Below are positions 53 to 63,729 of a stretch of 64,000 bases of DNA, in pieces. The DNA comes from an uncultured virus (IMG/VR IMGVR_UViG_3300047320_000352) (Duplodnaviria > Heunggongvirae > Uroviricota > Caudoviricetes). Where the stretch lies: IMG/VR virus record IMGVR_UViG_3300047320_000352. The stretch is one strand, 5' to 3'. A program made the translations under genes and the position numbers. Within the stretch, counting starts at the first letter, position 1, and every line of letters starts with the position of its first letter. The notes below the pieces were generated by a model. That model worked only from the letters and a program-made list of their open reading frames with translations. It had not been told where the DNA came from and searched no databases.

Positions 53-58
53 CTATAC
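53..58 (+). promoter_or_regulatory. CTATAC upstream motif (first of 24 co-oriented copies; full list in findings)
   Basis: ggCTATACgg, 23 nt before the ATG at 82. Confidence 0.6.
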
Positions 59-81
59 GGGAAACCATTGTCGAGAAGAAC

Positions 82-195
82 ATGCCTTCGCCAAACATCA
101 CCTTCGTTCACGTTCCGAGCCTGGCCGCGCGGATTCTCGCCTGGCTGCTGGCGAGGGCGGCGTGGGCAGGCGACCCACTGCCGCGGCGCTATTGA
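82..195 (+). CDS. small hypothetical protein (37 aa)
   Basis: ATG preceded by GAGAAG and a CTATAC motif; MPSPNITF...PRRY. Confidence 0.4.
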   Translation: MPSPNITFVHVPSLAARILAWLLARAAWAGDPLPRRY

Positions 196-219
196 CGAAT
201 CATCAAGAAATAGTATACT
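192..219 (+). promoter_or_regulatory. sigma70-type promoter
   Basis: TTGACG-16 nt-TATACT upstream of the ORF at 262. Confidence 0.6.
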
Positions 220-261
220 AATAGCATCTACTATCTTCTGCAGCTCGCTTGCATCACTCGC

Positions 262-732
262 ATGACGACAATTTACATCGGCCCCTATCTGGTTATCCCG
301 CCTGCGCAGCTCACGAGCACCGCGCGCAAACGCGTCTGCTCGAATCATTGCGCCAAACCCGCAATCGAGCGGCCGGCGAAGTTCTGCTCGAACTGCGGCG
401 GCGCGGTTGTCGACGAGGCCGTAGTGTCGGAAGAGGTGAAGCCGCTGCCCATTACGAAGCTTGATGCTCGATGGGAAGACGTCATGTGGCGCCCGGAATA
501 CGGTCAGCGCCATCCGAAGGGAGACATCTGGTTGCCGAACCGCGGTCGAATCGGCACAACCTATGGCCACGGCTCCGAGGACAGTTACAAGCCCTTGGCG
601 CTCACGGATGTCGACAGCCACGCCATGCTCACGAAGGCGCAAAATCAGTACGACGCGTTTGTGACGGCGCTGCGACATGACTTCGGCATCGCGCCGTTCT
701 GGGAAGTCGGAGTCATCGCCTACGCAAACTGA
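262..732 (+). CDS. hypothetical protein with Cys-pair zinc-ribbon motif
   Basis: CSNHC...FCSNCG; typical codon usage. Confidence 0.75.
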   Translation: MTTIYIGPYLVIPPAQLTSTARKRVCSNHCAKPAIERPAKFCSNCGGAVVDEAVVSEEVKPLPITKLDARWEDVMWRPEYGQRHPKGDIWLPNRGRIGTTYGHGSEDSYKPLALTDVDSHAMLTKAQNQYDAFVTALRHDFGIAPFWEVGVIAYAN

Positions 733-841
733 CCCGGCGCGCGGGCGAGGCGCTCAAGCGGGCAGAGTTTGCGGACGAGCGCAGAGAGCCTCGAGAAATC
801 GGAGGCCCGGCTCAACACGACAAACACTCAAGGAACGGGAA

Positions 842-1264
842 TCACTTGGCCCTTCGCCATGGCCGCGCGAACAGCAAATCATAGAGTTCGAGGAGGGAGT
901 GCCGCCCCCACGGGCTGGCCACACGGATGACCATGATGATGAACGAGGCGAGCCATACCAGAAAAATGGTGACGAAGACCATTTGTATGGTCAGCGAGTA
1001 ATCCGCGAGAAAATATCGCATGCCGCCGACGTAGGCGCCCAGCGCAGTTGCTTCCAGGGTCGGAAGAGGCGTCCCTCTCGCTACTCCAGCGAACCAGCTG
1101 AACAGCAGTAAGCCGAGGACCGCTCCGACGGCCCAGGACGAGTGCGCGCCGGCCATTACCAGGTGCGTCGTGACGCCGAGGTCGCTCACGGATTGTGAGG
1201 TGTTCGCATAGCTCAATGCGGGAACAAGAAACAGGGCTAGCGCGGCGCTCACGATTGCGCGCAT
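842..1264 (-). CDS. membrane protein with signal peptide, paralog of 1249..1617
   Basis: MRAIVSAALALFLVPALSYA signal-like N-terminus; hydrophobic segments; GGAG RBS. Confidence 0.7.
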   Translation of the reverse strand: MRAIVSAALALFLVPALSYANTSQSVSDLGVTTHLVMAGAHSSWAVGAVLGLLLFSWFAGVARGTPLPTLEATALGAYVGGMRYFLADYSLTIQMVFVTIFLVWLASFIIMVIRVASPWGRHSLLELYDLLFARPWRRAK

Positions 1265-1617: not shown

Positions 1618-1812
1618 GTCTTGTCCAACACAAGTTGAGGAGCGACCGGGCTCCGAAGCAGTGGTATAGCTCCGACAAGGAGTCATCTCGGCCGATGACT
1701 TGCGCACAGCGCCCTGAACGCTATACGGGTTGAGGCCATTACCGATAGCTGCGGCAAGCGCCGGGCCTTTTTAATCGAAAGAACGCGCGCCGCTCAACAC
1801 AGAGGAACCAAT

Positions 1813-3468: not shown

Positions 3469-4233
3469 TTATGCGGCGGGCGGCGCGGGCAACAGCATGG
3501 CGCCGCCGTTTGCGATGGCGGCGAGCATCCGATGCTCGTCGTGGGCGAATTCCTGGATACGGCGCGATAGCTCCGCCATGCCGAGCAGCAGTCGATGGAA
3601 GAACAGGGCGGCTTCGGGCGTGTAGGGCATCTCCGAGCACTCTTCTTCGTCCGGCAGCGAGAACGCCGCCCACGACTGCAGCAGATACAGCGGGGCTGTG
3701 CGCTCGCCCTCCGCGCCGACGCGTTCGTATTTGACGGTAACGGTATTCCCGCGCTTGAGTGTCGTTTTGTCGACCACGCGCGCGCCGATAACAAGCGAGT
3801 AGCCGTCTTGGGACGGTTTCCCAGCGTGGTGCTCGCCATACCACTCATTGGACGCCCAGCTGGCGTCCGGCCACGACGCATTCGGAACGATGGTCCCGTC
3901 CGGCGTCTGTGCGAACGAGACGTGCGAGCCGAGGTGATAGAGGATGACCCGTTCAACGGCTACCTCGGGCGTCAATGCCTGAAGGTACGCCTGCTGAAGC
4001 GCATCGCGAAGGGTGGCCAGCACCGGCCCGCGCAGATGCGTATGTCCCCGTACGCTAACGTTCGCAATGGTCCTTCCATCAAAGCGGGTCGCGCGCACGA
4101 CTTCGAGCAGCTCTTCCGGCACCCGCACCTGGAACACGCCTGCATCGTCGACACTCGTGACGCACTTCAGCTCGAGCCGCTCGTCGGTGGCGGGGTCCTT
4201 GATGACAATCCTGGTATCTTGAATCTTGGCCAC
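3469..4233 (-). CDS. hypothetical protein
   Basis: 254-aa ORF; GGGAG RBS; TGGTATAAT on the minus strand at 4270-4278. Confidence 0.75.
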   Translation of the reverse strand: MAKIQDTRIVIKDPATDERLELKCVTSVDDAGVFQVRVPEELLEVVRATRFDGRTIANVSVRGHTHLRGPVLATLRDALQQAYLQALTPEVAVERVILYHLGSHVSFAQTPDGTIVPNASWPDASWASNEWYGEHHAGKPSQDGYSLVIGARVVDKTTLKRGNTVTVKYERVGAEGERTAPLYLLQSWAAFSLPDEEECSEMPYTPEAALFFHRLLLGMAELSRRIQEFAHDEHRMLAAIANGGAMLLPAPPAA

Positions 4234-4269: not shown

Positions 4270-4330
4270 ATTATACCAAATAATGATGATTATGCCGATG
4301 ATTACTTAATCTATTTTTAAATGGTATACT
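4270..4330. promoter_or_regulatory. divergent extended -10 promoters
   Basis: TGGTATAAT (minus, 4270-4278) and TGGTATACT (plus, 4322-4330) in an AT-rich gap. Confidence 0.65.
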
Positions 4331-4389: not shown

Positions 4390-5379
4390 ATGAAAGTGCT
4401 CATCGTGGCCGAGAAGCCCGCTATTGCCCGCGCCATCGCGCCGTTTGCGAAAAAGCAATGGCCGGACGCCCACATTACCTTCGTACACGCCGTGCCCTAC
4501 GGCAACATCAAATTCAGTTACCCGCGCGGGCTGAAGTCGCAAGATTTCCCCTACCTGGCTGAGCCAAAAGACTGCCTGCAATCCTGGGGCGATTGGTCCT
4601 GCAAGCCGGTAGTCTATGGGGCCATAGGTCTGTTTGTTCCGACGGAAATGCGCGAAGAGCTCTTTACTTCCGCAGACATCATCGTATCCGCCTGCGACCC
4701 GGACCCTACTGGAGCGAGCGCCTTTGCGGTGCTGCTGGAGCAGGTGTTTGGCGATGACCGCTTTCTGGCGTGCCCCGCGCTATCGCTCTACGGTCTGGAC
4801 AATGAGTCCATCGTAAGGGCATTCGCACGGATGGCTCCGTTTGGTGAGCTCTGCGCCAGGAGCCTCGAGGCCGGGCGCTTAAAACGCTACTTTGACTGGA
4901 ACTGGAACGTGAACAGCCTCGCCATTCTGGGCGAGACGCAGCGCCGTGCCGGCGTGCCGGCTGACGCACCGCCGCTGTCGAAATATGCGTTGCAGCTGCT
5001 GTACGGTCTGCGCAACCAACAGCCGATGACGGATGGCAAAGTCATTTCCCTGATGCAGCGCTGGCCGGGCACAGGTCGCTACCAGGTGCCGCTTGGCGAG
5101 TGGCGCGCGCAGCTCGGAAGTGCGGCATCGCGGTCGCCGATTCTGGATAACCTCGTCTCAGCAGGGCACCTCGCGCGCACAGAAGTGGATGGCAAGCAGG
5201 GAGTGCTTGTTTCAGCGCGCGGCCGGACATTGCTCGAGCTGTTGCATCCGGATTGCGAGGACCCTGACCTGCCGTTCCGGCTGCACGCCTGGTGCGAGAA
5301 GGGCGCAGCATCAAAACCGGCCATCGACGGTTACATCAAGACATTTTTCGGAAAGCAGACGCGCTTCATGGCGCGTTAA
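4390..5379 (+). CDS. type IA topoisomerase-like protein (TOPRIM plus partial core, internally deleted)
   Basis: MKVLIVAEKPAIARAIA, ACDPDPTG and LGSAASRSPILDNL motifs; only 329 aa. Confidence 0.75.
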   Translation: MKVLIVAEKPAIARAIAPFAKKQWPDAHITFVHAVPYGNIKFSYPRGLKSQDFPYLAEPKDCLQSWGDWSCKPVVYGAIGLFVPTEMREELFTSADIIVSACDPDPTGASAFAVLLEQVFGDDRFLACPALSLYGLDNESIVRAFARMAPFGELCARSLEAGRLKRYFDWNWNVNSLAILGETQRRAGVPADAPPLSKYALQLLYGLRNQQPMTDGKVISLMQRWPGTGRYQVPLGEWRAQLGSAASRSPILDNLVSAGHLARTEVDGKQGVLVSARGRTLLELLHPDCEDPDLPFRLHAWCEKGAASKPAIDGYIKTFFGKQTRFMAR

Positions 5380-6286: not shown

Positions 6287-7285
6287 TCAGACCTCGAAGG
6301 CGGCGCGCAACAGGACGCGTTTGCGCTCCTTCTCGGCAGCGTATTTCCTGTCCTCTTCAGGGTCCGAAAAGTTCAGCCCATCAAGCATCTCCAGAACGGC
6401 CGCGCTTCCTTCAGCCTTTCGTAGCGCCTTCTCCTCGTCGGAGAGTGCTTCGAATGCCGCCATTTGCGCGAGGTGTTCCTGAAACTGCGCTGGTGTTGCG
6501 ACAGGAGGTGCTACCTCGACGGCGACCTTAAGGAACGGGTTTTCAGTTGTAACGACCCGCTCGTAAAGCACCTCGGGCACCTGCAGCTGAGGAAACGCCG
6601 CGTTCAGGTCCTGTACCACCTTGTGGGTGTTGAGGAACTCGGCGATACCCAGGAAGTGGGCGTACACCGCGCCAACGAGCGAATACGAAGCTCTGCGCCC
6701 GTAGTTCTTCTCTTCGCAGATGACGTAGGGCAGTGCGATGCGTCCGGGAAAATCCGCGGACCGCGCGCCCTGCACATTGACACCCTTGAAAAGTTCCTGG
6801 TCCGGCCGCGGGTCATACTCGTCCTGCCCGTCGAAGGCCTTGTAACCGATTTCCATCTCGGCCCAGCCAAGGGGTCGAGCGGACGAAAGGTCTGGGTACT
6901 GCCGGTCGCAAAGTCTGAGCTCCAGATTTCTCACACGGGTTTCGAAGTCCCAGCGCGTCCCGTTAAGCGACCTGCCGACGTCACTCAAGTCACGTGCCTC
7001 GCCGGAGATGCTGTCGAGGAGCGTGTACAGCGCGTCGTACAGGTCGGCGTAAATCATCGGGCCATATGTCTGGCGCAACAACGTTTTGCGCTCCTTCTTC
7101 AGGGCATGCGCGGCTTCCCACAGCGAATGTGACTCGAACCAGCTGCGCGCAGCCTTCATCGCCGCAACGCGGATTTCCGTGAAAAGGGCATCCAGGTTAG
7201 CGATGGGCGTCCACTTCTGGCCAATGAAATCGGCCAGAAGGGTCACTTCTTCGTCGAGATTGATGTCTGCAGTCAGGGTCTTCAT
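6287..7285 (-). CDS. hypothetical protein
   Basis: 332-aa ORF; GAGG RBS; CTATAC motif 34 nt upstream. Confidence 0.8.
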   Translation of the reverse strand: MKTLTADINLDEEVTLLADFIGQKWTPIANLDALFTEIRVAAMKAARSWFESHSLWEAAHALKKERKTLLRQTYGPMIYADLYDALYTLLDSISGEARDLSDVGRSLNGTRWDFETRVRNLELRLCDRQYPDLSSARPLGWAEMEIGYKAFDGQDEYDPRPDQELFKGVNVQGARSADFPGRIALPYVICEEKNYGRRASYSLVGAVYAHFLGIAEFLNTHKVVQDLNAAFPQLQVPEVLYERVVTTENPFLKVAVEVAPPVATPAQFQEHLAQMAAFEALSDEEKALRKAEGSAAVLEMLDGLNFSDPEEDRKYAAEKERKRVLLRAAFEV

Positions 7286-7374
7286 GGTTTGGCCTCAGGA
7301 TGTAGATTAAACACATCCCGTATAGGACGGCCGCGGCCTGGCCTGCCTGAGCCTGCTTCGAGGATGATGCCTCG

Positions 7375-8154: not shown

Positions 8155-8751
8155 CTACGCGTGCGTGAGCCGGAACGTGAGGTTGATGCGCGGCCGCGCG
8201 CCGGGCTGCTTGGTAATCCCGTGGCGCCACTCTTCCTGAGTCGCACCCTTCATCACGAGAAGCGAGCCGCCGCGCAAGTCGTACGCCAGCTTCGTCCTGG
8301 TCGCCATGTGCTCCATGTCAAACGCACGCCCGGCACCCAGGGAAACCGACGCGATGACAGGATGCTTGCCGAGCTGGGTTTCCTTATCCGCATGCATGCC
8401 GATAGAGTCGTTTCCGTCACGGTAGTAGTTCATCAGGACACTGTTGAATCGGGCGGCCAGTCCCTGGCCAGCCAGAACACGCTCGACCTTTTCCTGGAGT
8501 GCGCGCAGCTCCTGTGGCATCGGACAGGCAGGGTGATAGAGGCCCGAATAGCGGTAATCGACCTCGCCGAACCACGCGAGCAGGCGCGGAATCTGAACCT
8601 GGCGTTCCTGCCAGAAGAGGGACTTCTGCTGCCAGTCAATCTGGTCGCGGCAGAAGTCGAACAGCGACTGGTGTTCGTCCGGTGACAGGAACTCGGGCAA
8701 CCACAGCACATCCGGTCGAGGCAGCGCCAGCTCAGGGAAAAGGGAATCCAT
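8155..8751 (-). CDS. alkB: AlkB-family 2OG-Fe(II) dioxygenase (ALKBH2/3-like)
   Basis: NSVLMNYYRDGNDSIGMHAD, IASVSLG, WRHGI and RINLTFR motifs. Confidence 0.92.
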   Translation of the reverse strand: MDSLFPELALPRPDVLWLPEFLSPDEHQSLFDFCRDQIDWQQKSLFWQERQVQIPRLLAWFGEVDYRYSGLYHPACPMPQELRALQEKVERVLAGQGLAARFNSVLMNYYRDGNDSIGMHADKETQLGKHPVIASVSLGAGRAFDMEHMATRTKLAYDLRGGSLLVMKGATQEEWRHGITKQPGARPRINLTFRLTHA

Positions 8752-8774
8752 GTGAAGCTCCATGTATATGACAA

Positions 8775-8856
8775 ATTATACCAAAAATAGCCCGTATTCT
8801 CAAGTTAACTTTGCCGATAGCCCCCGGTTGGAATAAACGTATTTTAATGGTATACT
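8775..8856. promoter_or_regulatory. divergent sigma70-type promoters (alkB / RNA ligase)
   Basis: Minus: TTGAGA-17-TATAAT (8803-8775). Plus: TTGGAA-17-TATACT (8828-8856). Both have the TG extension. Confidence 0.7.
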
Positions 8857-8884
8857 TGCGGCATCTCAAAAACGCAATATCACC

Positions 8885-9952: not shown

Positions 9953-9979
9953 CACAAACAAACACACACGGGATTGCGT

Positions 9980-10993: not shown

Positions 10994-11005
10994 CCAGAAA
11001 AGGAG

Positions 11006-11697: not shown

Positions 11698-11725
11698 TTG
11701 CAAAAAACGAATAAGGTGGTATAAT
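11698..11725 (+). promoter_or_regulatory. sigma70-type promoter
   Basis: TTGCAA-16-TATAAT with TG extension. Confidence 0.7.
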
Positions 11726-12811: not shown

Positions 12812-12857
12812 ACCTATACCGGATAGCAGCGTTTTGCTGTTAACCTGAGGACATATC

Positions 12858-13463: not shown

Positions 13464-13482
13464 TTTCCTTTCTCTTCTCCAG

Positions 13483-13512
13483 AAGCCGCAGATTCTTTCT
13501 GCGGCTTTTTTT
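13483..13512 (+). terminator. Rho-independent terminator
   Basis: AAGCCGCAGA/TCTGCGGCTT stem followed by a T-run. Confidence 0.85.
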
Positions 13513-17933: not shown

Positions 17934-18162
17934 AGGGCCTCCAAGCGCGCCAATGAGAGAAATGACACTATAGTAATAAATATCGTTGAAGTCAAATTAT
18001 CCTACCAGTTGGCCCGTTTTTGAGTTCGCCCCACGATACAGTGGGCTGCAAAGGCCAGGTGAACGGACGGCTCAGACTTTGTCGCGTTTTGCGAAAAAGA
18101 CTCGGTAATACGGATGTTTTGTGATATACTGAACTCATCGTAAATCACATCAGGACACGAAC

Positions 18163-21471: not shown

Positions 21472-21550
21472 GACCCGCTTGGTCGATTTTGCGTTATGTG
21501 ATATACTGCGTCCCAACAGTTAACAAGGCATCACCAGGAAGAGACCAGAC

Positions 21551-22803: not shown

Positions 22804-23003
22804 CCCGCGATAGTCCCCTGCCAGCGCTCCTCCTTCCCGGCAAATGCGTCGTCGTCGCGCGATTCTGCCAATTCCCGATTCCTATACTGAACGTTGCAGC
22901 TTGACACGGAAAGTTAACTCTTCCGTGCCATTCACGCAAACAGCTTAAATTGTGATATACTACTTGCGTCCAATTCAAAACCTTCGTAAGTGTAATTCGC
23001 ACT

Positions 23004-25493: not shown

Positions 25494-26183
25494 ATGACGG
25501 CTATCCCGATGATTCAGACTTCCACCTTCTCGGCCCGGTTGACGAGCCTGCTCTCCGGGGTACTGATGAGCGCGGTCGCGCTCGCGAGCATCCCGGGACT
25601 CGACTATACGACGCACCTGCCTTTCGGTCTCGAGCGCACACAAGTCGAAGTGGTGACCCAGGTTACGGATGCGAAACCCGTCCCGCAGACGACGTTGCCG
25701 TTCAACCAGGGCACCGTGGCGAACTATCTCTCGCGCGAGTGGAACCTGGATGGCTCCTACGCCAGCCAGGTCGCCTCAGCCGTCCTCTCGGCTTCCCAGC
25801 GCCACGGCGTGGACCCGTTGCTCCTCATGGCGGTGGCGGCGACCGAATCGTCGTTCAACCACAAGGTAGGCAACCCCGGAGGCGGTCAGGACCCGATGAA
25901 GCCCTTCGGCATCATGCAGGTGGCCGGGCGCTACCACACGGACCTCTTTCCCGGCGGCAACGTGAAGGCGACCTCCGTCGGCGAGAACGTAGACATCGGT
26001 GCTCAGGTGCTCAAGGAGTATCTCGAGAACGAGGGTGGCAACGAGCGGCGCGCGCTCCTGCGCTACAACGGTTCTCTCCATGTGAGCGACAAATATTTTC
26101 GACGCGTGAATGAGCTCAAACGGCGCCTGATGCGCGGCCTGATGGCGCAGCGCAGTATCGACGATGATGATGAGCCTGCGTAA
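25494..26183 (+). CDS. SLT-family lytic transglycosylase
   Basis: LLMAVAATESSFN, GIMQV, NVDIGAQVL and ALLRYNG motifs; N-terminal hydrophobic anchor. Confidence 0.9.
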   Translation: MTAIPMIQTSTFSARLTSLLSGVLMSAVALASIPGLDYTTHLPFGLERTQVEVVTQVTDAKPVPQTTLPFNQGTVANYLSREWNLDGSYASQVASAVLSASQRHGVDPLLLMAVAATESSFNHKVGNPGGGQDPMKPFGIMQVAGRYHTDLFPGGNVKATSVGENVDIGAQVLKEYLENEGGNERRALLRYNGSLHVSDKYFRRVNELKRRLMRGLMAQRSIDDDDEPA

Positions 26184-26241: not shown

Positions 26242-26377
26242 GCACTTCAGTGTTGACATCGGGCTGGAAACGAGAGTTTGAAAAGCAGTTGCGAAAACTC
26301 TATTTCATGCTATACTATTTCTCATCGCAGTCGAACAAATCTCTGCGACCCGAAACCTACACTGGAGTAACACTAGC

Positions 26378-26665: not shown

Positions 26666-26786
26666 GCAGTACATCGTTGTAGGCCAGGCGCGTTCTGCGT
26701 CTGGCATCACCCCCATTTCTCGCTATACGGTTTGCTGGCGCTACGCAAGTGTCGCCGTATTTCCCCATAGAAAGGAGCTCACTCAC

Positions 26787-30154: not shown

Positions 30155-30331
30155 CCCGGCCGACTAGCCTGCGACCGGTACCCACCGGCGGTATCGTGGA
30201 GGGAGCGTAGACCCTCTTTTGAACCTCCTGCTTCGACCGTGAAGCGCAAAAACGCGGTCTTTTTAACCCTGCATCCTTCAATGCAGGGCGCCAGGCGCTA
30301 TACCACTGCAGACCTCAAGGTATACCGCCAA

Positions 30332-32837: not shown

Positions 32838-32917
32838 TTGTGTACCTCATTGAATTGGCCTAATCAGTATAAGGGGACACGTCGCGTGCAAGCATTGCGC
32901 ATCGGGACCACAGCAAT

Positions 32918-33355: not shown

Positions 33356-33416
33356 AGATTCCTCGCAAAAAAGTAGTTGGCCTTGCAGACCCGTATAGGC
33401 TGCGGCCGCGCGAATG

Positions 33417-34266: not shown

Positions 34267-34375
34267 GGTGTTCCTTTCATGTGTGAGTTGCCCTGACTCT
34301 GTATAGCCCGGCGCCCACGATAATATCTAATTACATGGTATACTAATTTCCATCAAACATCTGGAGTTGTCGCGC

Positions 34376-35899: not shown

Positions 35900-35953
35900 A
35901 TCCGGTGGCCGGTCGACGATATACCGAACAACGACACTTCTGAAGGAACACGC

Positions 35954-37487: not shown

Positions 37488-37546
37488 TACGGGCTTTCTA
37501 TACAGGAAAGCAGGACCCATTCAATCAAGGACAGACGGAGCACATC

Positions 37547-39517: not shown

Positions 39518-39657
39518 GATGTTTGCCTCCAGTAGGCAGCTATTTCCACATAGCCGTATAGCGCCAAATGCGGCAAAATAGCGTGTAATCGGAGGTGTCG
39601 CTGGCGCGCCGCGCTGTTCTATACGGAACATGGCAACAATTAACCAGCGAGGAAGCT

Positions 39658-42918: not shown

Positions 42919-42927
42919 TGCTACGTG

Positions 42928-44720: not shown

Positions 44721-44739
44721 TTTTCTATCCTCCGGGTTG

Positions 44740-45375: not shown

Positions 45376-45567
45376 ACCCTACCTCCAGATGTGTTGTTTC
45401 CTCTGGAGTCGTATAGAGAAATACGAAGGCTCGAACTTGCCCGGAAGTTGACAAATACGTATTGTACGGTAATCTATGTGACGTTGCCAGTTAACGCTGA
45501 GGCTCCGTCCGGATGGATGTTGCTGTCAAAACGCTATACGATTGACCCAACAATCAAGGAGTGCCCC

Positions 45568-47047: not shown

Positions 47048-47184
47048 ATTTTTCCTCCGGTTATTGAACGTTCCTGGAACGGTATAGCTCGTGGCCACAC
47101 GCGCGCCGCCGGCCGGCGCATCCGAGGGCAGAACATGACCGGGTGCGCGAGCTATACGAATGACTTCAATTTCGGGGGCTCTCC

Positions 47185-48757: not shown

Positions 48758-48763
48758 CCACGC

Positions 48764-48878: not shown

Positions 48879-48879
48879 A

Positions 48880-50901: not shown

Positions 50902-50997
50902 GAAAAATCCCTTTGGGACGGACGTGCGTCAGCGACCTGGGTTACAGGCCAACTTGGTAGTTGGTATAGCGTTGAAAGAGCTCAGCGTTTCGATGAA

Positions 50998-51035
50998 AAA
51001 ACCTCCATGGCATCGCTGCGCATGGAGGTGTGAGG
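50998..51035 (-). terminator. terminator hairpin, repeated at 42880..42918
   Basis: AAAACCTCCAT...ATGGAGGT. Confidence 0.75.
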
Positions 51036-51053
51036 GTTGGTGCTTGAAGTGGC

Positions 51054-51740
51054 CTAGAAGTCTAGGACGATGACCTTCAGCGGTTCAATCGTGCGCGGCT
51101 CGGGCGGCTGCTTGTCGAGCCACGTCCGGTACGGCCCTTGGGCATAGCCGAACAGCTCGTGTTCGCGGATGATGGTCCAGGACCACGGACCGATTTTCCC
51201 GAGCGTCAAGGCCACCTGTCGCAGCCAGTGGCTGAGTGCGGGACTTGCGTCTATACGCGCCTTGAGGCTTGCGGTTGCGGCTTCATCACGTCCCATCTTG
51301 TTTTCGCCGGCGGGCACGCGACACGCGACGGCACCATATCTTCGCCGGTTGCGGTCCCGTTCGTTGCAGACTTGGATGTCGCAGCGTTCGGTTTGATGCG
51401 CTGTAAAAAACGCCTTCATTTCGAACAGCATCTCGCGGAACTCGACGAGCTCCAGCGACGGATGCACCGCGGGTAGCAGCAGGAGCTTTGCCAGGTTCAG
51501 CGTGAGCATCGTGCCGCGTTCAACGGGCGTCAACTCGAGGTCAATTTCCGTAATGGCTTTCTTGATGGCATCCAGTCGCAGGTTTGCGGTCGGCAGGTCC
51601 ATGAACATGGCGGCTAGATACTCGCGCGCCTGGTCTTTCGTGCGCACGGGTTCCCGGTCATCTGCGATAAAGATGATTTTGCCATCTGCGTCGGCCGAGG
51701 CGATGAGAGTCAGCAGTGTGTCGGTGTTGGTTCTGAGCAT
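51054..51740 (-). CDS. hypothetical protein
   Basis: GGAGG RBS; CTATAC motif 36 nt upstream. Confidence 0.75.
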   Translation of the reverse strand: MLRTNTDTLLTLIASADADGKIIFIADDREPVRTKDQAREYLAAMFMDLPTANLRLDAIKKAITEIDLELTPVERGTMLTLNLAKLLLLPAVHPSLELVEFREMLFEMKAFFTAHQTERCDIQVCNERDRNRRRYGAVACRVPAGENKMGRDEAATASLKARIDASPALSHWLRQVALTLGKIGPWSWTIIREHELFGYAQGPYRTWLDKQPPEPRTIEPLKVIVLDF

Positions 51741-51885
51741 GATGTTTCCTCCGTGAATGTTAGACTAATCCAATCCGTATAGAAGAAAAACGAGAGCCTC
51801 CAAACGCAAGGCGTAGGGAGGCTCAAGGTGTTGGACTGCGTCAGTCTGGACGAACAGTTAGCACGCGCCGACGGACATCGTCGGC

Positions 51886-52020
51886 CTAGCCAAGAGAGGA
51901 CACGTCGCCAGGCGCTTCCTCTTTCACCGTTTCGCACCGTTCGCATCGAACGAGGCTGTCGTACCCGCTGCCGTAGCGTTCCCAGACGTGCTCGCAAAAG
52001 AGTCGTTTGAGCCAGTTCAT
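51886..52020 (-). CDS. small Cys/His protein (44 aa)
   Basis: MNWLKRLFCEHVW...CERC; ATGA overlap with the NMNAT stop. Confidence 0.6.
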   Translation of the reverse strand: MNWLKRLFCEHVWERYGSGYDSLVRCERCETVKEEAPGDVSSLG

Positions 52021-56356: not shown

Positions 56357-57454
56357 TCAGGCGGCTGCCGGCAGGTCGTAGTTGACTGCGCCTCGGGCGA
56401 ACCGTTGACGCGAGAACTGGACCACGACTTCCGGGTCATGGGTCGCAAACACGAAACGACCCTCGTCGATGTTCACTTCCTTGAGCAGGTTGATGTCCAA
56501 GGTGTAGGACTCGGGTTCGCTCAGCCCATCTGCGGGAACCTCACCTTCATCGAATCCGTAGAAGGTCACTTCCATGCCGTTCAGGCTGAGCGGGCTCCGG
56601 TTTACCTCGTTGTGGCTCTGGCCATCACACAAAATGGGCGCGCCGTTGCGCAGCCCCTTGATGTTGTACTGGCCACCTTCGTCGTTCTGCGGACGCATGT
56701 TCAGCATCTGCATCGCGTCGGTTGCATTCTCGTTGTAGCGGTTCATTTCCTCGACGAGCGCCTGCAGCATGTCGAACGTGAACTCGGTGAAGAACGCCGC
56801 GACGTTCAAAACGCCGCTCAGGTTCGACTTGTTTTCCAGATTGTCGACGCAGTATTCCTCGACGAAAGCGCGCGGCAGGCCTGCGAAGTCCAGCGAGTAG
56901 AACAGGCGGCCTGGTCGGTTAATCATGTGCTTGTCGATGCGGCTGCGGTCGTTGACCGTCAGCAGGAACAACTTCTTCGACGGATACAGGCCGTCGAGCA
57001 GCGTCAGCAGGTGCGGCTGTTTTTCATGGTCGTACACCTTTTCGAATTCGTCGAAGAGGATGATGGCCGACTGCGACATGCCGCCGATGAAGGCGTTAAA
57101 TTCGTCGCCACAGAAGGGTTCATTGACCACCAGTGTCGGGATGTCCAGTTCCTGCCCGAGCTGCGAGACGCGCTTGGTCAGCATCGTCTTGCCTGCGCCC
57201 TTGTGGCCCGAAAGCAGCACGCCAGTGCCCGACGGACGGCAGCCGAACGTGTTCAGGATGCGGTGCGCACGGCTGTTTACGTCGCCGTAGAGCTTCGCCG
57301 GCAGCTTGAAGTCTTCGATGCGCTCCAGATAGAAACCAATCAGCGCGCCATGGCGCACTGCGTACGTGCCCGGCGGCAGGACCGGCTCGACGGCGAGCGC
57401 TTCAGTGCTGGTCGGAAAGTATTCGTTGCCGTCACGGCGGTAGACACGGGTCAT
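56357..57454 (-). CDS. AAA+ ATPase
   Basis: GHKGAGKT Walker A, IILFDEFEK Walker B, NRPGR Arg finger. Confidence 0.92.
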   Translation of the reverse strand: MTRVYRRDGNEYFPTSTEALAVEPVLPPGTYAVRHGALIGFYLERIEDFKLPAKLYGDVNSRAHRILNTFGCRPSGTGVLLSGHKGAGKTMLTKRVSQLGQELDIPTLVVNEPFCGDEFNAFIGGMSQSAIILFDEFEKVYDHEKQPHLLTLLDGLYPSKKLFLLTVNDRSRIDKHMINRPGRLFYSLDFAGLPRAFVEEYCVDNLENKSNLSGVLNVAAFFTEFTFDMLQALVEEMNRYNENATDAMQMLNMRPQNDEGGQYNIKGLRNGAPILCDGQSHNEVNRSPLSLNGMEVTFYGFDEGEVPADGLSEPESYTLDINLLKEVNIDEGRFVFATHDPEVVVQFSRQRFARGAVNYDLPAAA

Positions 57455-57487: not shown

Positions 57488-57516
57488 ACTATACTATCAA
57501 ATGCGTATAAACGCAA
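57488..57516 (-). promoter_or_regulatory. sigma70-type promoter for the 57454-51886 operon
   Basis: TTGCGT-17-TATAGT on the minus strand. Confidence 0.65.
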
Positions 57517-57650
57517 GTTACCTCTCAATATCGGTCCGCGTACGGTAGGTGTTTTGAGTGACGCATACCGTCAAACGCAAACCTGTCAACCATCGCCTCT
57601 ATACTGATTTGCAGCAATTTCGCTGTTAATAAATAGAGGAAACATTCATC

Positions 57651-59885: not shown

Positions 59886-59944
59886 TTTCTGAAAGCGTGG
59901 GCTCTATCTAGTCCATTCTGACAGGTAAGCAAAACTCCTCAACA

Positions 59945-59979
59945 AACCCTCCTTGCTTCGGCATTGGAGGGTTTTTTAT
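59945..59979 (+). terminator. Rho-independent terminator
   Basis: AACCCTCC...GGAGGGTT stem followed by a T-run. Confidence 0.8.
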
Positions 59980-60200
59980 TCGCAGAGCGTTTAGGTTGAG
60001 GGCGAAGACAGGGCGTCAAAAGCCTCCGCTTCGATTCAGATTGTGCTATCTTTTTCGGAACGGCAGTCACCCGTGCCCCCACCGGCGAACGTCGCTCAGC
60101 GACAGACATCTGCATCAAGCGAGTATTCGTCGTACGCAAATCCGCTTCGGGCGGTTTTTTCTTTGCGTATGGACGGTGGGACGTGCGCATGGAGAAGACA

Positions 60201-61151
60201 ATGTCCGAACCGATTGCTGTACATATCGACATCCCCCGCGTCAAGAAGAACGCCCGCCTGCTCGAAAAGTGGGTCGGGCTGCAGACTTCAACGTCCCAGG
60301 AACTCACGGCCAGAATGATGTCGGCGACCAGCTGGCAGAATCTACTCACCCTCGGCGTTTTCGTTCCCGACGATAGTCTGAGAGGCGCGGGCAATCTGGG
60401 CGTTTTCAAGCGTATCCACGAACAAGCCGACCTGCTTGCAGGTCGGCTCAATATTCCGGCCAGCACTGCGACCAAACTCGCAGCGTTCTGGCAGCCAACT
60501 GCGCGACGCAGGTCCCCAGAGGTACTGTTCTCATTCCTCGAGGACATTAAAGCTTTACCGTCCGATACGTCTTTGCCCGCATCATGGCTTAACCACGCCC
60601 CATCCGCGAAGGAACTTCTTAAGCTTGCCGCAGACTGTCCTGCTCTGGCACAGGACCAGGTTGATGAGCCTATAAAGCAGCGGCCGGAAGCATTCTTTTC
60701 AATCGTGCGGGATGGACTCGCCTTCCATGGAATGGCCGACAGCGAGCTCTATCTGAGGGTGGACCGTTTGGGAAAGCGACCATCAATGAGCGACTATCTG
60801 GGCTATGTGTCGTTCGGCCCGGGGAGTATTGAGCCGGACGGAAACGGAGGGTTCATGCTGGCCAAATACACAACTCAGGCGCGCGCAAAACTCGTAGGGC
60901 TCACAGAGCAATCTGCGCGGGAGGTGGCTCATTCTTTCGGATTCTCCGCGCCTGGCGGTTTGGGCGGATTCCTAGGGCACTCCGGCTTCTACGGAAGTCG
61001 AGCAGCTCTCGGACTCGCATCCTGGATTGCACGGCACCCGAGAAAAGCATCAAAGCTCTCTAGCGCTGCAAACCTGTATATGGGCGCCTGGCCCGAAAAC
61101 ACGATGGTTCGGCTCGAGTTTGAGCTCGTCCATGCAGGACTGCTGGTCTAA
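60201..61151 (+). CDS. hypothetical protein
   Basis: 316-aa ORF; GGAG RBS. Confidence 0.75.
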   Translation: MSEPIAVHIDIPRVKKNARLLEKWVGLQTSTSQELTARMMSATSWQNLLTLGVFVPDDSLRGAGNLGVFKRIHEQADLLAGRLNIPASTATKLAAFWQPTARRRSPEVLFSFLEDIKALPSDTSLPASWLNHAPSAKELLKLAADCPALAQDQVDEPIKQRPEAFFSIVRDGLAFHGMADSELYLRVDRLGKRPSMSDYLGYVSFGPGSIEPDGNGGFMLAKYTTQARAKLVGLTEQSAREVAHSFGFSAPGGLGGFLGHSGFYGSRAALGLASWIARHPRKASKLSSAANLYMGAWPENTMVRLEFELVHAGLLV

Positions 61152-61167
61152 CCGGGAGCACTTTCAA

Positions 61168-62337
61168 ATGGAACTGCTACTGAAGATAGTCCGAAAAATG
61201 GCCAGCCCGTGGCCTGTGGTCGTATGCAAGAGGGATAAGAGTGGGAAGGTGCTCAGAATCCAGATGCAGGACGGGCTCTATTACGAAGCGGTGCCCGCCC
61301 GGATGTGGCTCGAACTGAAAAACGGGATGCTCAAGGAGGTGGCTCGAGCGGCGACGCGCGTTCACGCGCAGGGCTTACGCTTTGGCTCTGCAGCATGGAC
61401 AGGTGCTCAAGCGGACTATCCGCTCGTCGACGCCGCTGGCAATATCGTGGGAACGAGCAAGATTCGGCAGGTGCCTGAGGCTAGGGCGCACAAGCCCAAG
61501 ACAAGAGACCCGTTGGTCTGGCACGACCGCCGCGTACGCCTGGCGCGCCAGGCCGCGAAGCAGGGCTACACAATGGTGACGGCGGAATGGCACGGCCAGC
61601 AAAAGAAATATGAGTTCGTTGATTCAGAGGGCGAAACAGTCTGGCTGACCGCTGCACAAATCCAATCCGGCGAGCAAGCGAAATTGAGAGCGCTGGCGCG
61701 GACAGCGGCCGGTGTCGACCCGGGATACACGCTTGTCGCGGCCAAGTGGTACGGCGGCACTCGAAAATATGCGTGGCGCACCCCGGATGGCGAGCATATT
61801 TTCGAATCGCTGGATGCGTTGCGTCAGCGAAGTTGCCGTATCGGTATGCGTGTGCTTGATGAGCAAACAAGTCCATCGCCGTTGCGCGGCTGGCCACGGT
61901 TCAGGTGGACGTTGCCAGATTCATCGTGCATAGAATCGACGTGGCCCGAATTCGAGGCCGCACTCCGGAAGGTATTAGGGCAGCCAGCCACAGAACAGCC
62001 GCCGAAGTACATGCGCACCGGTTTTTCAGCGTCAGTCCGTCGCGAGCTTGTTGAGCAGGTTGCGAGCCAAAGTGCTGCTCCCGAGGACGGCAAGGGTGGC
62101 CACTTCGACGCCGACGACCAGCCCGGTATCGGTCAATCACCGGGCACGCTCTCAGCTATAACGCTCGCGGTTCGGCTAGCGATGCAACCCCGAAAAATTT
62201 TGAAGGGTGTCGAGAGTAATGCGCAACGAATACGCCAACAGACACTAACCGTAGCGCGAGGGCCAAAAGCGCGGCGTTATGCATGGCTTCACGGCCACGG
62301 GAAGCGAGGCAAGGGGATTGCGCAGCAAGGCCGCTAA
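61168..62337 (+). CDS. hypothetical protein with internal GYTL...W.G...KY repeats
   Basis: GGGAG RBS; 3-4 degenerate ~45-aa repeats. Confidence 0.7.
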   Translation: MELLLKIVRKMASPWPVVVCKRDKSGKVLRIQMQDGLYYEAVPARMWLELKNGMLKEVARAATRVHAQGLRFGSAAWTGAQADYPLVDAAGNIVGTSKIRQVPEARAHKPKTRDPLVWHDRRVRLARQAAKQGYTMVTAEWHGQQKKYEFVDSEGETVWLTAAQIQSGEQAKLRALARTAAGVDPGYTLVAAKWYGGTRKYAWRTPDGEHIFESLDALRQRSCRIGMRVLDEQTSPSPLRGWPRFRWTLPDSSCIESTWPEFEAALRKVLGQPATEQPPKYMRTGFSASVRRELVEQVASQSAAPEDGKGGHFDADDQPGIGQSPGTLSAITLAVRLAMQPRKILKGVESNAQRIRQQTLTVARGPKARRYAWLHGHGKRGKGIAQQGR

Positions 62338-62521
62338 GACATCGACAGCCCCCTTGCGGGGCTGCGGCTCGAACACCGGCAGGTCGCCTTCCGTTCGACT
62401 CAAAGTTACAGTTATCCCTTGAAATACGCCAACTTTCTGCCTATGTTCCAAACTTCGAACCGTAAGATGATTGGGTACTATCTCGATATATCCTCAACTC
62501 GCACTACCAACAGGAGATTAA

Positions 62522-63070
62522 ATGGCGACTCTGGAAGCCATCCAGGCACGTATTCAGAAGCTTCAGGACCAGGCAGATGCTTTGCGCTCGAAGGCAAAGC
62601 AGTCGGTAATCGGCAAGATTCATGACCTGATGCTCAAGAATGACTTAACGCCGGAAGACATTGGCAATCCCATCCGGCGCGCATCAAAAGTCATCAAGAC
62701 GGTCAAGGCGAAGAATGCTTCGGCCGGCGCCCACGCCAAAGGCAAACTGCCCGCGAAATACCTGAACCCCAAGACGGGTGAAACGTGGAGTGGCCATGCC
62801 CGTCCGCCGGCATGGATTAAGAACGTCAAGGACCGCTCGAAGTTTCTCATCAACCAGGAAGAACTTCCCGCGTCGGCTCCTGCCTCAAAGACGCACCTGA
62901 AAGTCGTACCGAATGGCGCATCGAATGGTAAAGCGCGCAAGAAGGTGAGCGTCGCGCCGAAGTATCGCGACCCGGAAAGCGGTGTAACCTGGACGGGCCG
63001 GGGCCTGGCACCGGTCTGGATTCGCGACGCCGAAGACCGTACGCCGTTCTTGATTAAGGAAGCAGCCTGA
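62522..63070 (+). CDS. hns: H-NS family protein with two DNA-binding domains
   Basis: Coiled-coil N-terminus; KYLNPKTGETWSGHARPPAWI and KYRDPESGVTWTGRGLAPVWI. Confidence 0.92.
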   Translation: MATLEAIQARIQKLQDQADALRSKAKQSVIGKIHDLMLKNDLTPEDIGNPIRRASKVIKTVKAKNASAGAHAKGKLPAKYLNPKTGETWSGHARPPAWIKNVKDRSKFLINQEELPASAPASKTHLKVVPNGASNGKARKKVSVAPKYRDPESGVTWTGRGLAPVWIRDAEDRTPFLIKEAA

Positions 63071-63157
63071 ACGGTGCGCGCTCTATGCCGCTCACTGCGC
63101 GCATAGCAGGCGACAGTCTTTGCGTAAGGTCGGAATGGCCTCGAGCTAGCGGCCATG

Positions 63158-63187
63158 AAAAAGGACTCCCGGAGAAGGGGAGTCCTT
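63158..63187 (-). terminator. Rho-independent terminator
   Basis: A5 followed by GGACTCCC/GGGAGTCC stem. Confidence 0.8.
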
Positions 63188-63203
63188 AGAGTTGCTACAG
63201 GAC

Positions 63204-63647
63204 TTACGCGGCTTGCGCGAACTCTTCGAACGAGCCGACCGTAAAACCCAATTGCACGAGTGTTTCGCGCAGGGTCCGCAGGCCCATCCCCGCATCCACG
63301 CTCTGAACAGACCCGCCGTTGAAGGCGACGTCCAGGCGATATTCCTCGAGCTGTTCGCTCCAGCGACGCGTGAGCGTGACGTCTCCCAACGACGGCATCG
63401 GGCGCAGATAGGTGACAGGCTTGCTCTTCAGCAAGTCCGACACCGTGTAGCGCGATTCACCGCCTGCCTCGTTGATAAGGCGAACGCTGTTGAAGCCGAG
63501 CAGAATAAGCGCCGGAAGAACAGGGCTTTCCTGGTCTTCGACAACACGAAGGTCGACTACGCCGAGAACCGAATTGTCCAGCAGTACGGTCATGCGGTCC
63601 GACATCGGCGTGATGTCGTTCAACAAAATGCTCACTACGTTCTTCAT
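63204..63647 (-). CDS. hypothetical protein
   Basis: AGGAGG RBS; CTATAC motif 34 nt upstream. Confidence 0.75.
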   Translation of the reverse strand: MKNVVSILLNDITPMSDRMTVLLDNSVLGVVDLRVVEDQESPVLPALILLGFNSVRLINEAGGESRYTVSDLLKSKPVTYLRPMPSLGDVTLTRRWSEQLEEYRLDVAFNGGSVQSVDAGMGLRTLRETLVQLGFTVGSFEEFAQAA

Positions 63648-63729
63648 GGCTGTGTCCTCCTTGGTTGATAAGCCCATAGCCGTATAGCGCGATGCGCCGG
63701 CCGGGCATCAACGAGAAGGTCGTTTTGCG

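What the first reader, a model, noticed from the sequence alone, without database searches (positions are those of the whole stretch)
53..63687. Element-wide CTATAC motif: candidate promoter class for an element-encoded sigma factor or RNA polymerase
SEEN (manual scan): CTATAC lies in intergenic DNA, co-oriented with the next gene, at 24 sites. Distance to the start codon in nt is in brackets. Plus strand: 53(23), 1721(86), 12814(38), 26723(58), 30298(28), 37498(43), 38119(49), 38770(58), 39619(33), 40223(26), 45534(28), 47152(27), 57599(46). Minus strand: 1664(46), 7320(34), 33393(37), 34301(34), 39556(38), 42850(31), 45411(35), 47082(34), 50964(62), 51777(36), 63682(34). Four divergent gene pairs carry one copy per strand, back to back. 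I found only two copies inside CDSs (25604, 51251) and three at or near sigma70-type promoters (22882, 26310, 57489). Upstream flanks are mostly GC-rich with no shared -35 hexamer. One-off variants precede ruvB (ATATAC, 35919) and the M50 gene (TTATAC, 32867 minus). KNOWN: the RpoS -10 consensus is CTATACT and the final T is nearly invariant for sigma70/RpoS, yet 23 of these 24 sites lack that T. Short promoters without a -35 element are characteristic of phage-encoded transcription systems such as T4 gp55 late promoters and phiKZ non-virion RNAP. INFERENCE: the replicon encodes its own sigma factor, RNAP or activator outside this window, controlling the adhesins, porin, RNR, ART and PemK-like genes.
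Basis: partly seen in the sequence, partly recalled or inferred. Interest (0 to 1): 0.88.

Follow-up and report, generated by a model that had tools for sequence, protein, structure and literature searches.

The report
Conserved CTATAC promoter class, giant element
A six-base signal, CTATAC, sits just upstream of two dozen genes in this piece of a giant phage-like element from soil and is kept in its distant relatives, so it is most likely a special class of gene start signal read by a factor that has not yet been found.

Summary
CTATAC occurs 29 times against about 5 expected. 25 of the 29 copies lie, co-oriented, in the 15-100 nt before start codons, which is 4% of positions, and CTATAC is the top hexamer there (z 24). 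There is no -35, no TG, and T follows the motif at only 1 of 24 sites.

New here:
- True relatives were found in metagenome contigs, one of them 507,881 bp. They keep CTATAC before orthologous genes while the upstream flanks diverge.
- A second, sigma70-type class, TGnTATA(C/A)T, has 10 copies against 0.4 expected. Its bases at -13 and -7 are the reverse of the CTATAC class.
- A lineage-variable AGGAC-like element lies about 6 nt downstream, where transcription would start.
- Two Burkholderiaceae chromosome samples show no such class.

Best reading: CTATAC is a -10-positioned, -35-less promoter class of a novel giant phage-like element family. It resembles the RpoS consensus except at -7 and is probably read through an element-specified sigma-like factor. 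No sigma or RNA polymerase gene was found in the 64 kb window or in about 52 kb of relatives. No RNA data exist, so the factor and the start sites remain inferred.

The parts
53..58 (+). class B site CTATAC-G, 23 nt before a 37-aa ORF (82-195)
1664..1669 (-). class B site CTATAC-C, 46 nt before ORF 1249-1617; divergent partner of 1721
1721..1726 (+). class B site CTATAC-G, 86 nt before ORF 1813-2049 plus the NADAR gene; the unit ends at terminator-like hairpin 2572-2595
7320..7325 (-). class B site, 34 nt before ORF 6287-7285; the unit ends at hairpin 6271-6249
12814..12819 (+). class B site, 38 nt before ORF 12858-13259; the unit ends at hairpin 13481-13509
26723..26728 (+). class B site, 58 nt before the outer-membrane beta-barrel gene 26787-27548; the unit ends at hairpin 27568-27600
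30298..30303 (+). class B site, 28 nt before the He_PIG/fibrinogen-like gene 30332-32275
33393..33398 (-). class B site, 37 nt before ORF 32966-33355; lies 24 nt after terminator-like hairpin 33441-33422
34301..34306 (-). class B site CTATAC-A, 34 nt before ORF 33469-34266
37498..37503 (+). class B site, 43 nt before ORF 37547-38023; conserved in L217
38119..38124 (+). class B site, 49 nt before ORF 38174-38674; conserved in L217 and L218
38770..38775 (+). class B site, 58 nt before ORF 38834-39082; conserved in L217
39556..39561 (-). class B site, 38 nt before ORF 39137-39517; conserved in L217 and L218; divergent partner of 39619
39619..39624 (+). class B site, 33 nt before ORF 39658-40146; conserved in L217
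40223..40228 (+). class B site, 26 nt before the He_PIG/Gly-rich gene 40255-42186; lies 38 nt after hairpin 40162-40185; conserved in L217
42850..42855 (-). class B site, 31 nt before ORFs 42612-42818 and 42290-42610
45411..45416 (-). class B site, 35 nt before the five-gene run 44740-45375 down to 42928-43299; the first gene has a weak ART-PolyVal hit, E 0.0018; conserved in L217 and L218 with AGGAC 6 nt downstream
45534..45539 (+). class B site, 28 nt before the small membrane protein gene 45568-45870
47082..47087 (-). class B site, 34 nt before family marker gene 45959-47047; conserved in L217, L218 and L219; divergent partner of 47152
47152..47157 (+). class B site, 27 nt before ORF 47185-47505 (paralogue of 45568-45870)
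50964..50969 (-). class B site, 62 nt before the RCC1/He_PIG gene 48880-50901
51777..51782 (-). class B site, 36 nt before ORF 51054-51740; the orthologues in L217, L218 and L219 also carry CTATAC
57599..57604 (+). CTATAC-T, 46 nt before the class II ribonucleotide reductase gene; no -35; the only one of the 24 with T at -7; identical in L217 and L219
63682..63687 (-). class B site, 34 nt before ORF 63204-63647; conserved in L219
22882..22887 (+). CTATAC-T, 116 nt before ORF 23004; in tandem with the class A site at 22953
26308..26316 (+). hybrid TGCTATACT with TTGCGA 16 nt upstream, before the HU gene; sigma70-type
57489..57494 (+). CTATAC that is the mirror of the minus-strand -10 TATAGT (TTGCGT-N17) serving the ATPase gene 56357-57454
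25604..25609 (+). CTATAC inside a CDS; probably not functional
51251..51256 (+). CTATAC antisense inside CDS 51054-51740; probably not functional
35919..35924 (+). variant ATATAC-C, 29 nt before ruvB; the L218 orthologue has TGGTATACT instead
32867..32872 (-). variant TTATAC-T, 29 nt before the M50 peptidase gene 32331-32837
4270..4278 (-). class A extended -10 TGGTATAAT before ORF 3469-4233
4322..4330 (+). class A TGGTATACT before ORF 4390-5379
8775..8783 (-). class A TGGTATAAT with TTGAGA -35, before the 2OG-Fe(II) oxygenase gene
8848..8856 (+). class A TGGTATACT with TTGGAA -35, before the RNA ligase / PfkB run
11717..11725 (+). class A TGGTATAAT with TTGCAA -35, before ORF 11752
18122..18130 (+). 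class A TGATATACT before the run of small ORFs starting at 18163
21499..21507 (+). class A TGATATACT before ORF 21551
22953..22961 (+). class A TGATATACT before ORF 23004 and the RNB nuclease and SLT genes
34336..34344 (+). class A TGGTATACT before membrane protein gene 34376-34999

Best explanation
CTATAC is the core of a promoter class that I call class B. Its consensus is K-CTATAC-S-R-n-T, read as positions -14 to -4 in sigma70 numbering. In the most distant relative an AGGAC-like start region follows about 6 nt later.

Class B needs no -35 box. It drives at least 24 short transcription units in this window, many of one or two genes and many ending in an intrinsic-terminator-like hairpin. 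It is conserved across a previously undescribed family of giant phage-like elements from soil and rhizosphere, whose host is probably a betaproteobacterium.

It coexists with an ordinary sigma70-type class, class A: TGnTATA(C/A)T, with or without TTGnnn. The two classes differ at exactly the positions that group 1 and 2 sigma factors read: TG at -15/-14, C versus purine at -13, and T versus G/C at -7.

Inferred, not shown:
- Transcription starts 6-8 nt after the motif.
- Class B is read by host core polymerase carrying an element-specified sigma-like factor, or by a modified host holoenzyme. That factor would be encoded outside the window, giving a two-tier (early/host versus element-specific) programme.
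For: 1. Enrichment and position.
- 29 copies against 4.78 expected.
- 25 of 29 lie in 4.06% of strand positions; z 23.9; 2 antisense.

2. Anatomy.
- No information at -45 to -2 relative to the motif.
- Downstream S, R and T are conserved: in the window plus L218, 38 sites, G/C 30, R 33 and T 19.
- 11 of the 24 units end at a hairpin of 8 or more pairs right after 1-2 genes.
- 4 sites lie 24-60 nt behind such a hairpin.

3. Conservation.
- The relatives have 16, 18 and 7 copies against 2.0, 2.0 and 0.7 expected under a Markov model.
- 13 of 16 copies in L217 and 14 of 18 in L218 lie in promoter zones, and CTATAC is the top hexamer in both.
- The motif is kept before 11 orthologous genes while the upstream flanks diverge.

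4. Two classes.
- TGNTATAMT has 10 copies against 0.40 expected, and 0 of 100 shuffles reach 10.
- -13 and -7 are coupled. With C at -13, 3 sites have T at -7 and 21 do not. Without C at -13, 9 have T and 9 do not. Fisher p is 0.014, or 0.0026 without four palindrome mirror sites.

5. Start-site element.
- [AT]GG[AT][AC] lies 5-8 nt after the motif in 11 of 14 L218 sites, 5 of 13 in L217, 5 of 24 in the window and 1 of 5 in L219.
- The background rate is 3-3.5%.

6. Not a housekeeping signal of the likely host lineage.
- 19 against 13.6 expected and 14 against 10.1 expected in 2 x 200 kb of Burkholderiaceae chromosome.
- 1 of 19 and 2 of 14 copies lie in promoter zones.

7. Precedent. Single-element promoters read by phage sigma factors, and jumbo phages that carry sigma factors but no polymerase (passages of PMC4331800, and PMC7824862).
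Against: - No transcription start has been mapped. No RNA run holds this DNA.
- No sigma, gp55/gp33-like or RNA polymerase gene was found in the window, or among 25 of the 61 ORFs called in L217 and L218, namely those without a counterpart in the window.
- The rest of the replicon and the two long related contigs could not be read.
- The motif matches the RpoS consensus KCTAYRC in 7 of 7 positions. A host stationary-phase sigma with a small regulon is therefore not excluded by my 400 kb control, and the real host is unknown.
- The downstream AGGAC element is weak in the window itself (5 of 24).
- 5'-UTR hairpins are not general: mean z 0.03, and 5 of 24 have z below -1.
- The terminator scan as a whole is not above shuffles (19 against 19.3, 17 against 16.9, 20 against 18.8).
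- That the element is a phage rests on gene content only. No capsid, portal or terminase gene is in view, and the family is absent from the viral contig collection as queried.
Confidence: 0.55

Rival explanations
1. Class B sites are promoters read by a host alternative sigma of the RpoS type with no element factor. The element borrows the host stationary-phase or stress programme for its accessory genes.
For: - The motif equals the RpoS consensus KCTAYRC / CTATAC(T) at every position up to -8.
- RpoS promoters are described as lacking a -35 consensus (passage of PMC5650638).
- K at -14 in 30 of 38 sites.
- Many class B genes are surface or accessory genes: beta-barrel, He_PIG and RCC1 proteins.
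- No element sigma was found.
Against: - T at -7, part of both quoted RpoS consensus forms (CTATACT, KCTAYRCTTAA), is present in 1 of 24 window sites and 5 of 38 with L218. G/C occupies 30 of 38.
- The TTAA tail of the consensus is replaced by S-R-n-T.
- Sites with T at -7 in this element instead go with TG and a purine at -13.
- The density, 0.45-0.86 per kb, is 5-10 times that of two Burkholderiaceae chromosome samples.
Confidence: 0.2
2. Class B sites are promoters of an element-encoded RNA polymerase rather than of a sigma factor on host core. That polymerase could be multisubunit like those of phiKZ-type jumbo phages, or single-subunit.
For: - Jumbo phages with their own polymerases have short conserved motifs near -10 before early operons. 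The phiKZ late promoters are only TATG at the start site, with no upstream conservation (passages of review PMC7598289).
- Here too there is no upstream information, and there is a conserved start-region element.
- One relative's contig is 507,881 bp.
Against: - No polymerase subunit was seen in 64 kb plus the ORFs of relatives that were scanned.
- There are no PHROG or protein matches to phiKZ-type phages. The nearest phage matches, at 43-59% identity, are to other large phages. One of them, Ochrobactrum phage vB_OspM_OC, is T4-like and is placed in the jumbo-phage group that has sigma factors but no polymerase.
- The shared TATAC core with class A, and the canonical -10 geometry, fit a sigma70-family reader better.
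- T7-like promoters need about 17 conserved bases, which are absent here.
Confidence: 0.15
3. CTATAC is not a promoter. It acts instead in the RNA (a processing or protein-binding site in 5' leaders) or as an operator half-site for a DNA-binding regulator.
For: - Strict orientation and a preferred distance of 26-38 nt to the start codon at 16 of 24 sites.
- 5' leaders are better conserved than upstream flanks.
Against: - Four sites lie 24-60 nt behind terminator-like hairpins, and four pairs are back to back between divergent genes, so no upstream transcript is expected to carry them.
- A 6-7 base asymmetric site without a partner is atypical for operators.
- No other promoter-like signal is present upstream of these genes: best -35 matches are 1-4 of 6.
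- No Rfam family matches.
Confidence: 0.07

Closest known systems
RpoS (sigma S) -10 consensus CTATACT / KCTAYRCTTAA of enterobacteria
   Same: K at -14, C at -13, TATAC core with C at -8, and no -35 consensus.
   Different: - The T at -7 and the TTAA tail are replaced by S-R-n-T: T at 1 of 24 sites.
- The density is 0.45-0.86 per kb on the element family.
- Dependence on RpoS is untested.
Single-element promoters of phage-encoded sigma factors (phiEco32 / 7-11: TAATGTATA; T4 late TATAAATA with gp55/gp33, the latter recalled)
   Same: - One short element at about -10 and no -35.
- It coexists with sigma70-type early promoters on the same genome.
- It lies before many genes of a large phage-like element.
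   Different: - The sequence is different: TATAAATA occurs 0 times in the window.
- It is only 6-7 conserved bases in GC-rich flanks.
- No phage sigma gene has been seen so far.
Early and late promoters of jumbo phages with their own multisubunit polymerases (phiKZ, AR9)
   Same: A short motif found by sequence analysis before many operons of a very large element. Little or no upstream information, and a conserved start-site region.
   Different: - Those motifs are about 10 nt and AT-rich (early), or TATG / AACA-N6-TA (late).
- Those phages encode polymerase subunits. None is seen here, and there is no protein similarity to that group.
Extended -10 sigma70 promoters (TGnTATAAT)
   Same: Class A of this element fits the type: TGnTATA(C/A)T, 10 copies. 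Class B shares the TATA(C) core and the position relative to genes.
   Different: Class B has no T at -15 (5 of 24), has C instead of a purine at -13, and has no T at -7.

Membership tests
RpoS-type -10 promoter | C at -13 and K at -14 | tested here: met
   C is part of the motif. K at 21 of 24 window sites and 30 of 38 with L218.
RpoS-type -10 promoter | T at -7 (CTATACT) and the TTAA tail | tested here: not met
   T at 1 of 24 and 5 of 38. The following bases are R (33 of 38), n, and T (19 of 38).
RpoS-type -10 promoter | Transcription depends on RpoS | not testable with these tools
   The host is unknown and no RNA data exist.
sigma70 housekeeping promoter | -35 hexamer TTGACA at 16-18 nt, or TG at -15/-14 | tested here: not met
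   The best -35 match is 1-4 of 6 at class B sites. No column from -45 to -2 carries information, and T at -15 occurs in 5 of 24.
sigma70 housekeeping promoter | T at -7 of the -10 hexamer | tested here: not met
   1 of 24. By contrast, class A sites all end in T.
T4-type late promoter (gp55/gp33) | TATAAATA at -10 | tested here: not met
   0 copies in the window.
T4-type late promoter (gp55/gp33) | The genome encodes gp55-like sigma and gp33 | tested here: inconclusive
   None found by Pfam or PHROGs in the window, or among the 25 ORFs of relatives that were scanned. Most of the replicon is unseen.
Jumbo-phage own-polymerase promoter (phiKZ-like) | The genome encodes split beta/beta' polymerase subunits | tested here: inconclusive
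   None in the sequence in view. The remainder cannot be fetched.
Jumbo-phage own-polymerase promoter (phiKZ-like) | Conserved AT-rich motif of about 10 nt centred at -10 before early operons | tested here: inconclusive
   The motif is conserved and placed at a distance from start codons compatible with -10, but only 6-7 bases are conserved, 4 of them A/T. Start sites are unmapped.
Phage-specific promoter class (generic) | Over-represented, oriented, positioned before genes, conserved in related elements, rare in host-lineage chromosomes | tested here: met
   The true host is unknown.

The most novel reading that the evidence does not exclude
A family of giant (0.5 Mb or more) phage-like elements of soil betaproteobacteria runs a private promoter code. 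A sigma-like factor, or a polymerase, of its own reads K-CTATAC-S. This is an RpoS-like -10 in which the otherwise near-universal T-7 contact has been given up and C-13/C-8 have become decisive, so that dozens of element genes are insulated from both host sigma70 and RpoS. A parallel TGnTATACT class hands early control to the host enzyme.
Probability: 0.4. Interest if true: 0.75.

Novelty: new variant of a known kind. Interest (0 to 1): 0.6.

Why it matters
Phage- and element-specific promoters are the handles by which giant mobile elements take over or bypass host transcription. Here a very clean six-base signal is conserved from 94% down to 45% protein identity across an undescribed family that reaches half a megabase.

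The signal marks out the transcription units of dozens of unknown genes. It splits the genome into two promoter classes and predicts an unidentified specificity factor with an unusual way of reading the -10 region, without T at -7.

This gives three concrete uses:
- a search image for annotating these elements in soil metagenomes;
- a testable prediction for the complete genomes;
- a possible orthogonal promoter/factor pair for GC-rich bacteria.

Tried and rejected
- Source genome: none is held.
- Exact 41-mer of the window: not found in viral, genome or metagenome contigs.
- Megablast of 25 kb against phages and plasmids: only trivial hits.
- Ribonucleotide reductase and ATPase as probes in viral contigs: 55 and 80 loci, none of which shares more than two window proteins (the probe plus at most one other), with no CTATAC excess.
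- Family marker alignments A1 and A2 in viral contigs: nothing.
- Marker protein against plasmids: only 26% hits in Variovorax. Against phages: none.
- Marker protein in 397 scored genomes of the family of a Caballeronia genome: one weak hit, E 3e-4.
- Whole records behind L217-L219: not held.
- RNA evidence: no RNA holder listed.
- Laying contigs of four DNA runs: this showed a diverged co-occurring strain. The few listed indels near class B sites fall in the upstream flanks (34316, 34320, 42865, 42869). However, 1172 difference rows were not shown, so no test of motif conservation could be made.
- 5'-UTR hairpins as a general feature: rejected.
- Ochrobactrum phage vB_OspM_OC, a T4-like jumbo phage with similar accessory genes: GC 38%, TTGACA-type promoters, and 0 of 3 co-oriented CTATAC copies in upstream gaps.
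- Protein atlas on the marker protein: low-confidence model and weak AAA/SMC-like structural hits, so no function was taken from it.
- Rfam: no family matched.
- Literature: a search for CTATAC with promoter and phage returned 20 papers. From the listing of titles and abstract openings, none describes such a phage motif. A search on jumbo phage, Ralstonia and promoter motifs also gave nothing.

Full report
**Observation**

CTATAC occurs 29 times in the 64 kb window. Dinucleotide-preserving shuffles give 4.78 +/- 2.25, and none of 100 shuffles reaches 29.

My own crude gene caller placed 21 of the 24 listed sites 26-86 nt before a called, co-oriented start. The other three (53, 1664, 45534) precede ORFs that it missed or started elsewhere: a 37-aa ORF at 82-195, a 122-aa ORF at 1249-1617, and a GTG start at 45568.

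As a blind test I counted all hexamers in 75 promoter zones. A zone is the 15-100 nt before a start codon, co-oriented and cut at the neighbouring gene. Together the zones hold 5193 nt, or 4.06% of strand positions.
- CTATAC is first by a wide margin: 25 of its 29 copies are in zones, 1.0 is expected from a first-order model of the zones, and z is 23.9.
- Only 2 copies lie on the antisense strand of the zones.

- two lie in CDSs (25604, 51251);
- 22882 and 26310 read CTATACT;
- 57489 is the mirror image of a sigma70-type -10 (TTGCGT-N17-TATAGT) on the other strand. That promoter serves the ATPase gene and is conserved in relatives.

**Anatomy**

I aligned the 24 sites on the motif.
- No column from -45 to -2 carries information. 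The only upstream signal is the base just before the motif: G at 15 sites, T at 6, C at 3 and A at 0.
- The base after the motif is G at 14, C at 7, A at 2 and T at 1.
- The next base is a purine at 22 of 24. Two bases further on, T occurs at 14 of 24.
- With 14 sites from the distant relative L218 added, the consensus is K-CTATAC-S-R-n-T.
- Best matches to TTGACA at 16-18 nt are 1-4 of 6.

In sigma70 numbering this puts TATAC at -12 to -8, C at -13 and G/C at -7.

Eleven of the 24 units end at a terminator-like hairpin of 8 or more pairs directly after one or two genes. Four sites lie 24-60 nt behind such a hairpin. The permissive terminator scan as a whole is not above shuffles, however. Leaders do not generally begin with a stable hairpin: mean z is 0.03, and 5 of 24 have z below -1.

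**A second promoter class**

Listing every TATAC (60 sites) showed that the bases flanking it are coupled.
- With C in front, the base behind is T at 3 promoter-positioned sites and not T at 21.
- Without C in front, the counts are 9 and 9. Four of the nine non-T sites are mirror readings of the palindrome GTATAC.
- Fisher p is 0.014, or 0.0026 without the mirrors.

The T-ending sites are extended -10 promoters. TGNTATAMT occurs 10 times against 0.40 expected, with 0 of 100 shuffles reaching 10. All 10 lie before genes, several with a TTGnnn -35.

The window therefore carries two classes:
- class A is sigma70-type and lies between 4.2 and 34.3 kb (plus two TTGACx-N16-17 promoters at 0.2 and 18.0 kb);
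- class B is CTATAC and is densest at 26-64 kb.

The classes differ at -15/-14, -13 and -7, while both prefer C at -8. TATACT occurs 15 times and TATAAT 4 times. Hybrids exist before the HU gene (TGCTATACT) and before the reductase gene (CTATACT).

**What the element is**

Pfam and PHROGs show an accessory-gene region typical of very large phages. It encodes:
- NADAR, SIR2, an RNA ligase, a 2OG-Fe(II) oxygenase and a PfkB kinase;
- a cytidylyltransferase, DUF1643, DUF4031, an AAA ATPase of a phage family and a class II ribonucleotide reductase;
- ClpP, an RNB nuclease, SLT, HU, H-NS, RuvB, a chemoreceptor, HDOD and a two-component pair;
- He_PIG and RCC1 surface-type proteins, and about 50 ORFs without a family.

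There are no tRNAs, no Rfam families and no capsid, portal or terminase gene in view.

RuvB is 57-67% identical to those of Betaproteobacteria, mostly Burkholderiales. The DNA is held by rhizosphere and soil metagenome runs only, none of them RNA. Nothing close exists in the phage or plasmid collections.

**Relatives**

Gene 45959-47047 has 22 homologues in the large protein collection. One is named from Paraburkholderia aspalathi, and others come from contigs of up to 507,881 bp. An alignment of them retrieved three metagenome loci:

| Locus | Contig length | Relation to the window |
|---|---|---|
| L217 | 114 kb | Syntenic with window 36-59 kb; most shared proteins 60-94% identical (two at 46-48%) |
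| L219 | 12 kb | Same kind as L217 |
| L218 | 507,881 bp | 44-75% protein identity |

CTATAC is enriched in all three: 16, 18 and 7 copies against 2.0, 2.0 and 0.7 expected. It is again the top promoter-zone hexamer, with 13 of 16 copies in zones in L217 and 14 of 18 in L218.

In alignments of orthologous upstream regions the motif is kept before 11 genes, while the upstream flank is unalignable in L218.

In L218 a second element appears. [AT]GG[AT][AC], typically (Y)AGGACA, lies 5-8 nt after the motif at 11 of 14 sites. The corresponding counts are 5 of 13 in L217, 5 of 24 in the window and 1 of 5 in L219, against a background of 3-3.5%. This is where a start site is expected for a -10 element.

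**Controls in the likely host lineage**

I took 200 kb each of a Caballeronia and a Cupriavidus chromosome.
- CTATAC occurs 19 and 14 times against 13.6 and 10.1 expected.
- Only 1 of 19 and 2 of 14 copies lie in promoter zones.

This excludes a housekeeping use in these two genomes. It does not exclude a small host regulon, and the real host is unknown.

**Mechanism**

What is shown is an oriented, positioned, conserved, family-specific signal with the geometry of a -10 element and no -35. What is inferred is that it is a promoter and who reads it.

A site lacking a -35, TG and T-7 should be very poor for a sigma70 or RpoS holoenzyme (established knowledge of -10 recognition; see the passage in PMC7598289 on the flipped A-11 and T-7). 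Yet the motif matches the RpoS consensus KCTAYRC at all seven positions (passage of PMC5650638).

The most economical reading is a sigma70-family reader with RpoS-like contacts at -14/-13/-8 but a different -7 specificity.

Two precedents come from passages I read:
- phiEco32 and 7-11 use a single TAATGTATA element with a phage sigma (PMC4331800);
- one large group of jumbo phages carries sigma factors and gp33 but no polymerase (PMC7824862).

An own polymerase, as in phiKZ-type phages, remains possible (PMC7598289). No candidate gene was found in the window. Nor was one found among 25 of the 61 ORFs called in L217 and L218, namely those without a counterpart in the window.

**Verdict**

- The promoter interpretation is well supported.
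- The claim of an element-encoded sigma factor or polymerase is plausible but untested.

This is a new variant of a known kind, the phage-specific single-element promoter, on a previously undescribed family of giant elements.

Noticed in passing
window 59886-62521: About 2.6 kb lies between the reductase gene and the H-NS gene, where the relative L219 has only about 280 bp. It holds two long ORFs of atypical codon usage (60183-61151 and within 61027-62337) without any Pfam or PHROG family. It is probably a strain-specific insertion.
   Followed up: partly
window 45568-45870 and 47185-47505; 43673-44116 and 44145-44720; 37547-38023 and 38174-38674: Three pairs of neighbouring genes look like paralogues. 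In the first and third pairs each copy has its own class B promoter. In the second pair both copies lie in the gene run behind the site at 45411. In L218 the marker gene 45959-47047 is tandemly duplicated (8360-9451 and 9956-11044), each copy with its own CTATAC.
   Followed up: partly
window, start codons of many class B genes (e.g. 37547, 38174, 39517, 51740, 57651): The translation start regions share GGAG/GAGG followed by (A)ACATCATG. The AGGACA of the start-site element resembles this ribosome-binding region.
   Followed up: no
window, 21 GTWWAC sites (e.g. 213, 4324, 8850, 34338): GTWWAC is the m6A motif reported to prefer upstream regions in Ralstonia (PMC5390034, passages). It is not over-represented here (21 against 22 expected), but 13 of the 21 copies lie outside called CDSs. 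Several are the GTATAC inside class A TGGTATACT boxes.
   Followed up: partly
window 33001-52000 in run X9: A diverged relative (contigs under 90-95% alike, depth 40-80) co-occurs with the window's own strain (depth about 10). It shows replaced stretches, for example 35462-35966 (503 bp replaced by 26 other letters) and 50367-50668.
   Followed up: no
window 35954-37171: RuvB is 405 aa, with a C-terminal extension beyond the roughly 350 residues matched by bacterial RuvB. A 1.5 kb contig binned with a Rhizobacter MAG (L212) matches through residue 387.
   Followed up: no
window 8750-8880: A 133-bp divergent intergenic region holds four overlapping sigma70-type promoter-like sites, two per strand, between the oxygenase gene and the RNA ligase gene.
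   Followed up: no
window 4390-5379: The N-terminus of this 329-aa protein looks like a Toprim / topoisomerase IA start (recalled resemblance; no Pfam hit at E 0.05).
   Followed up: no
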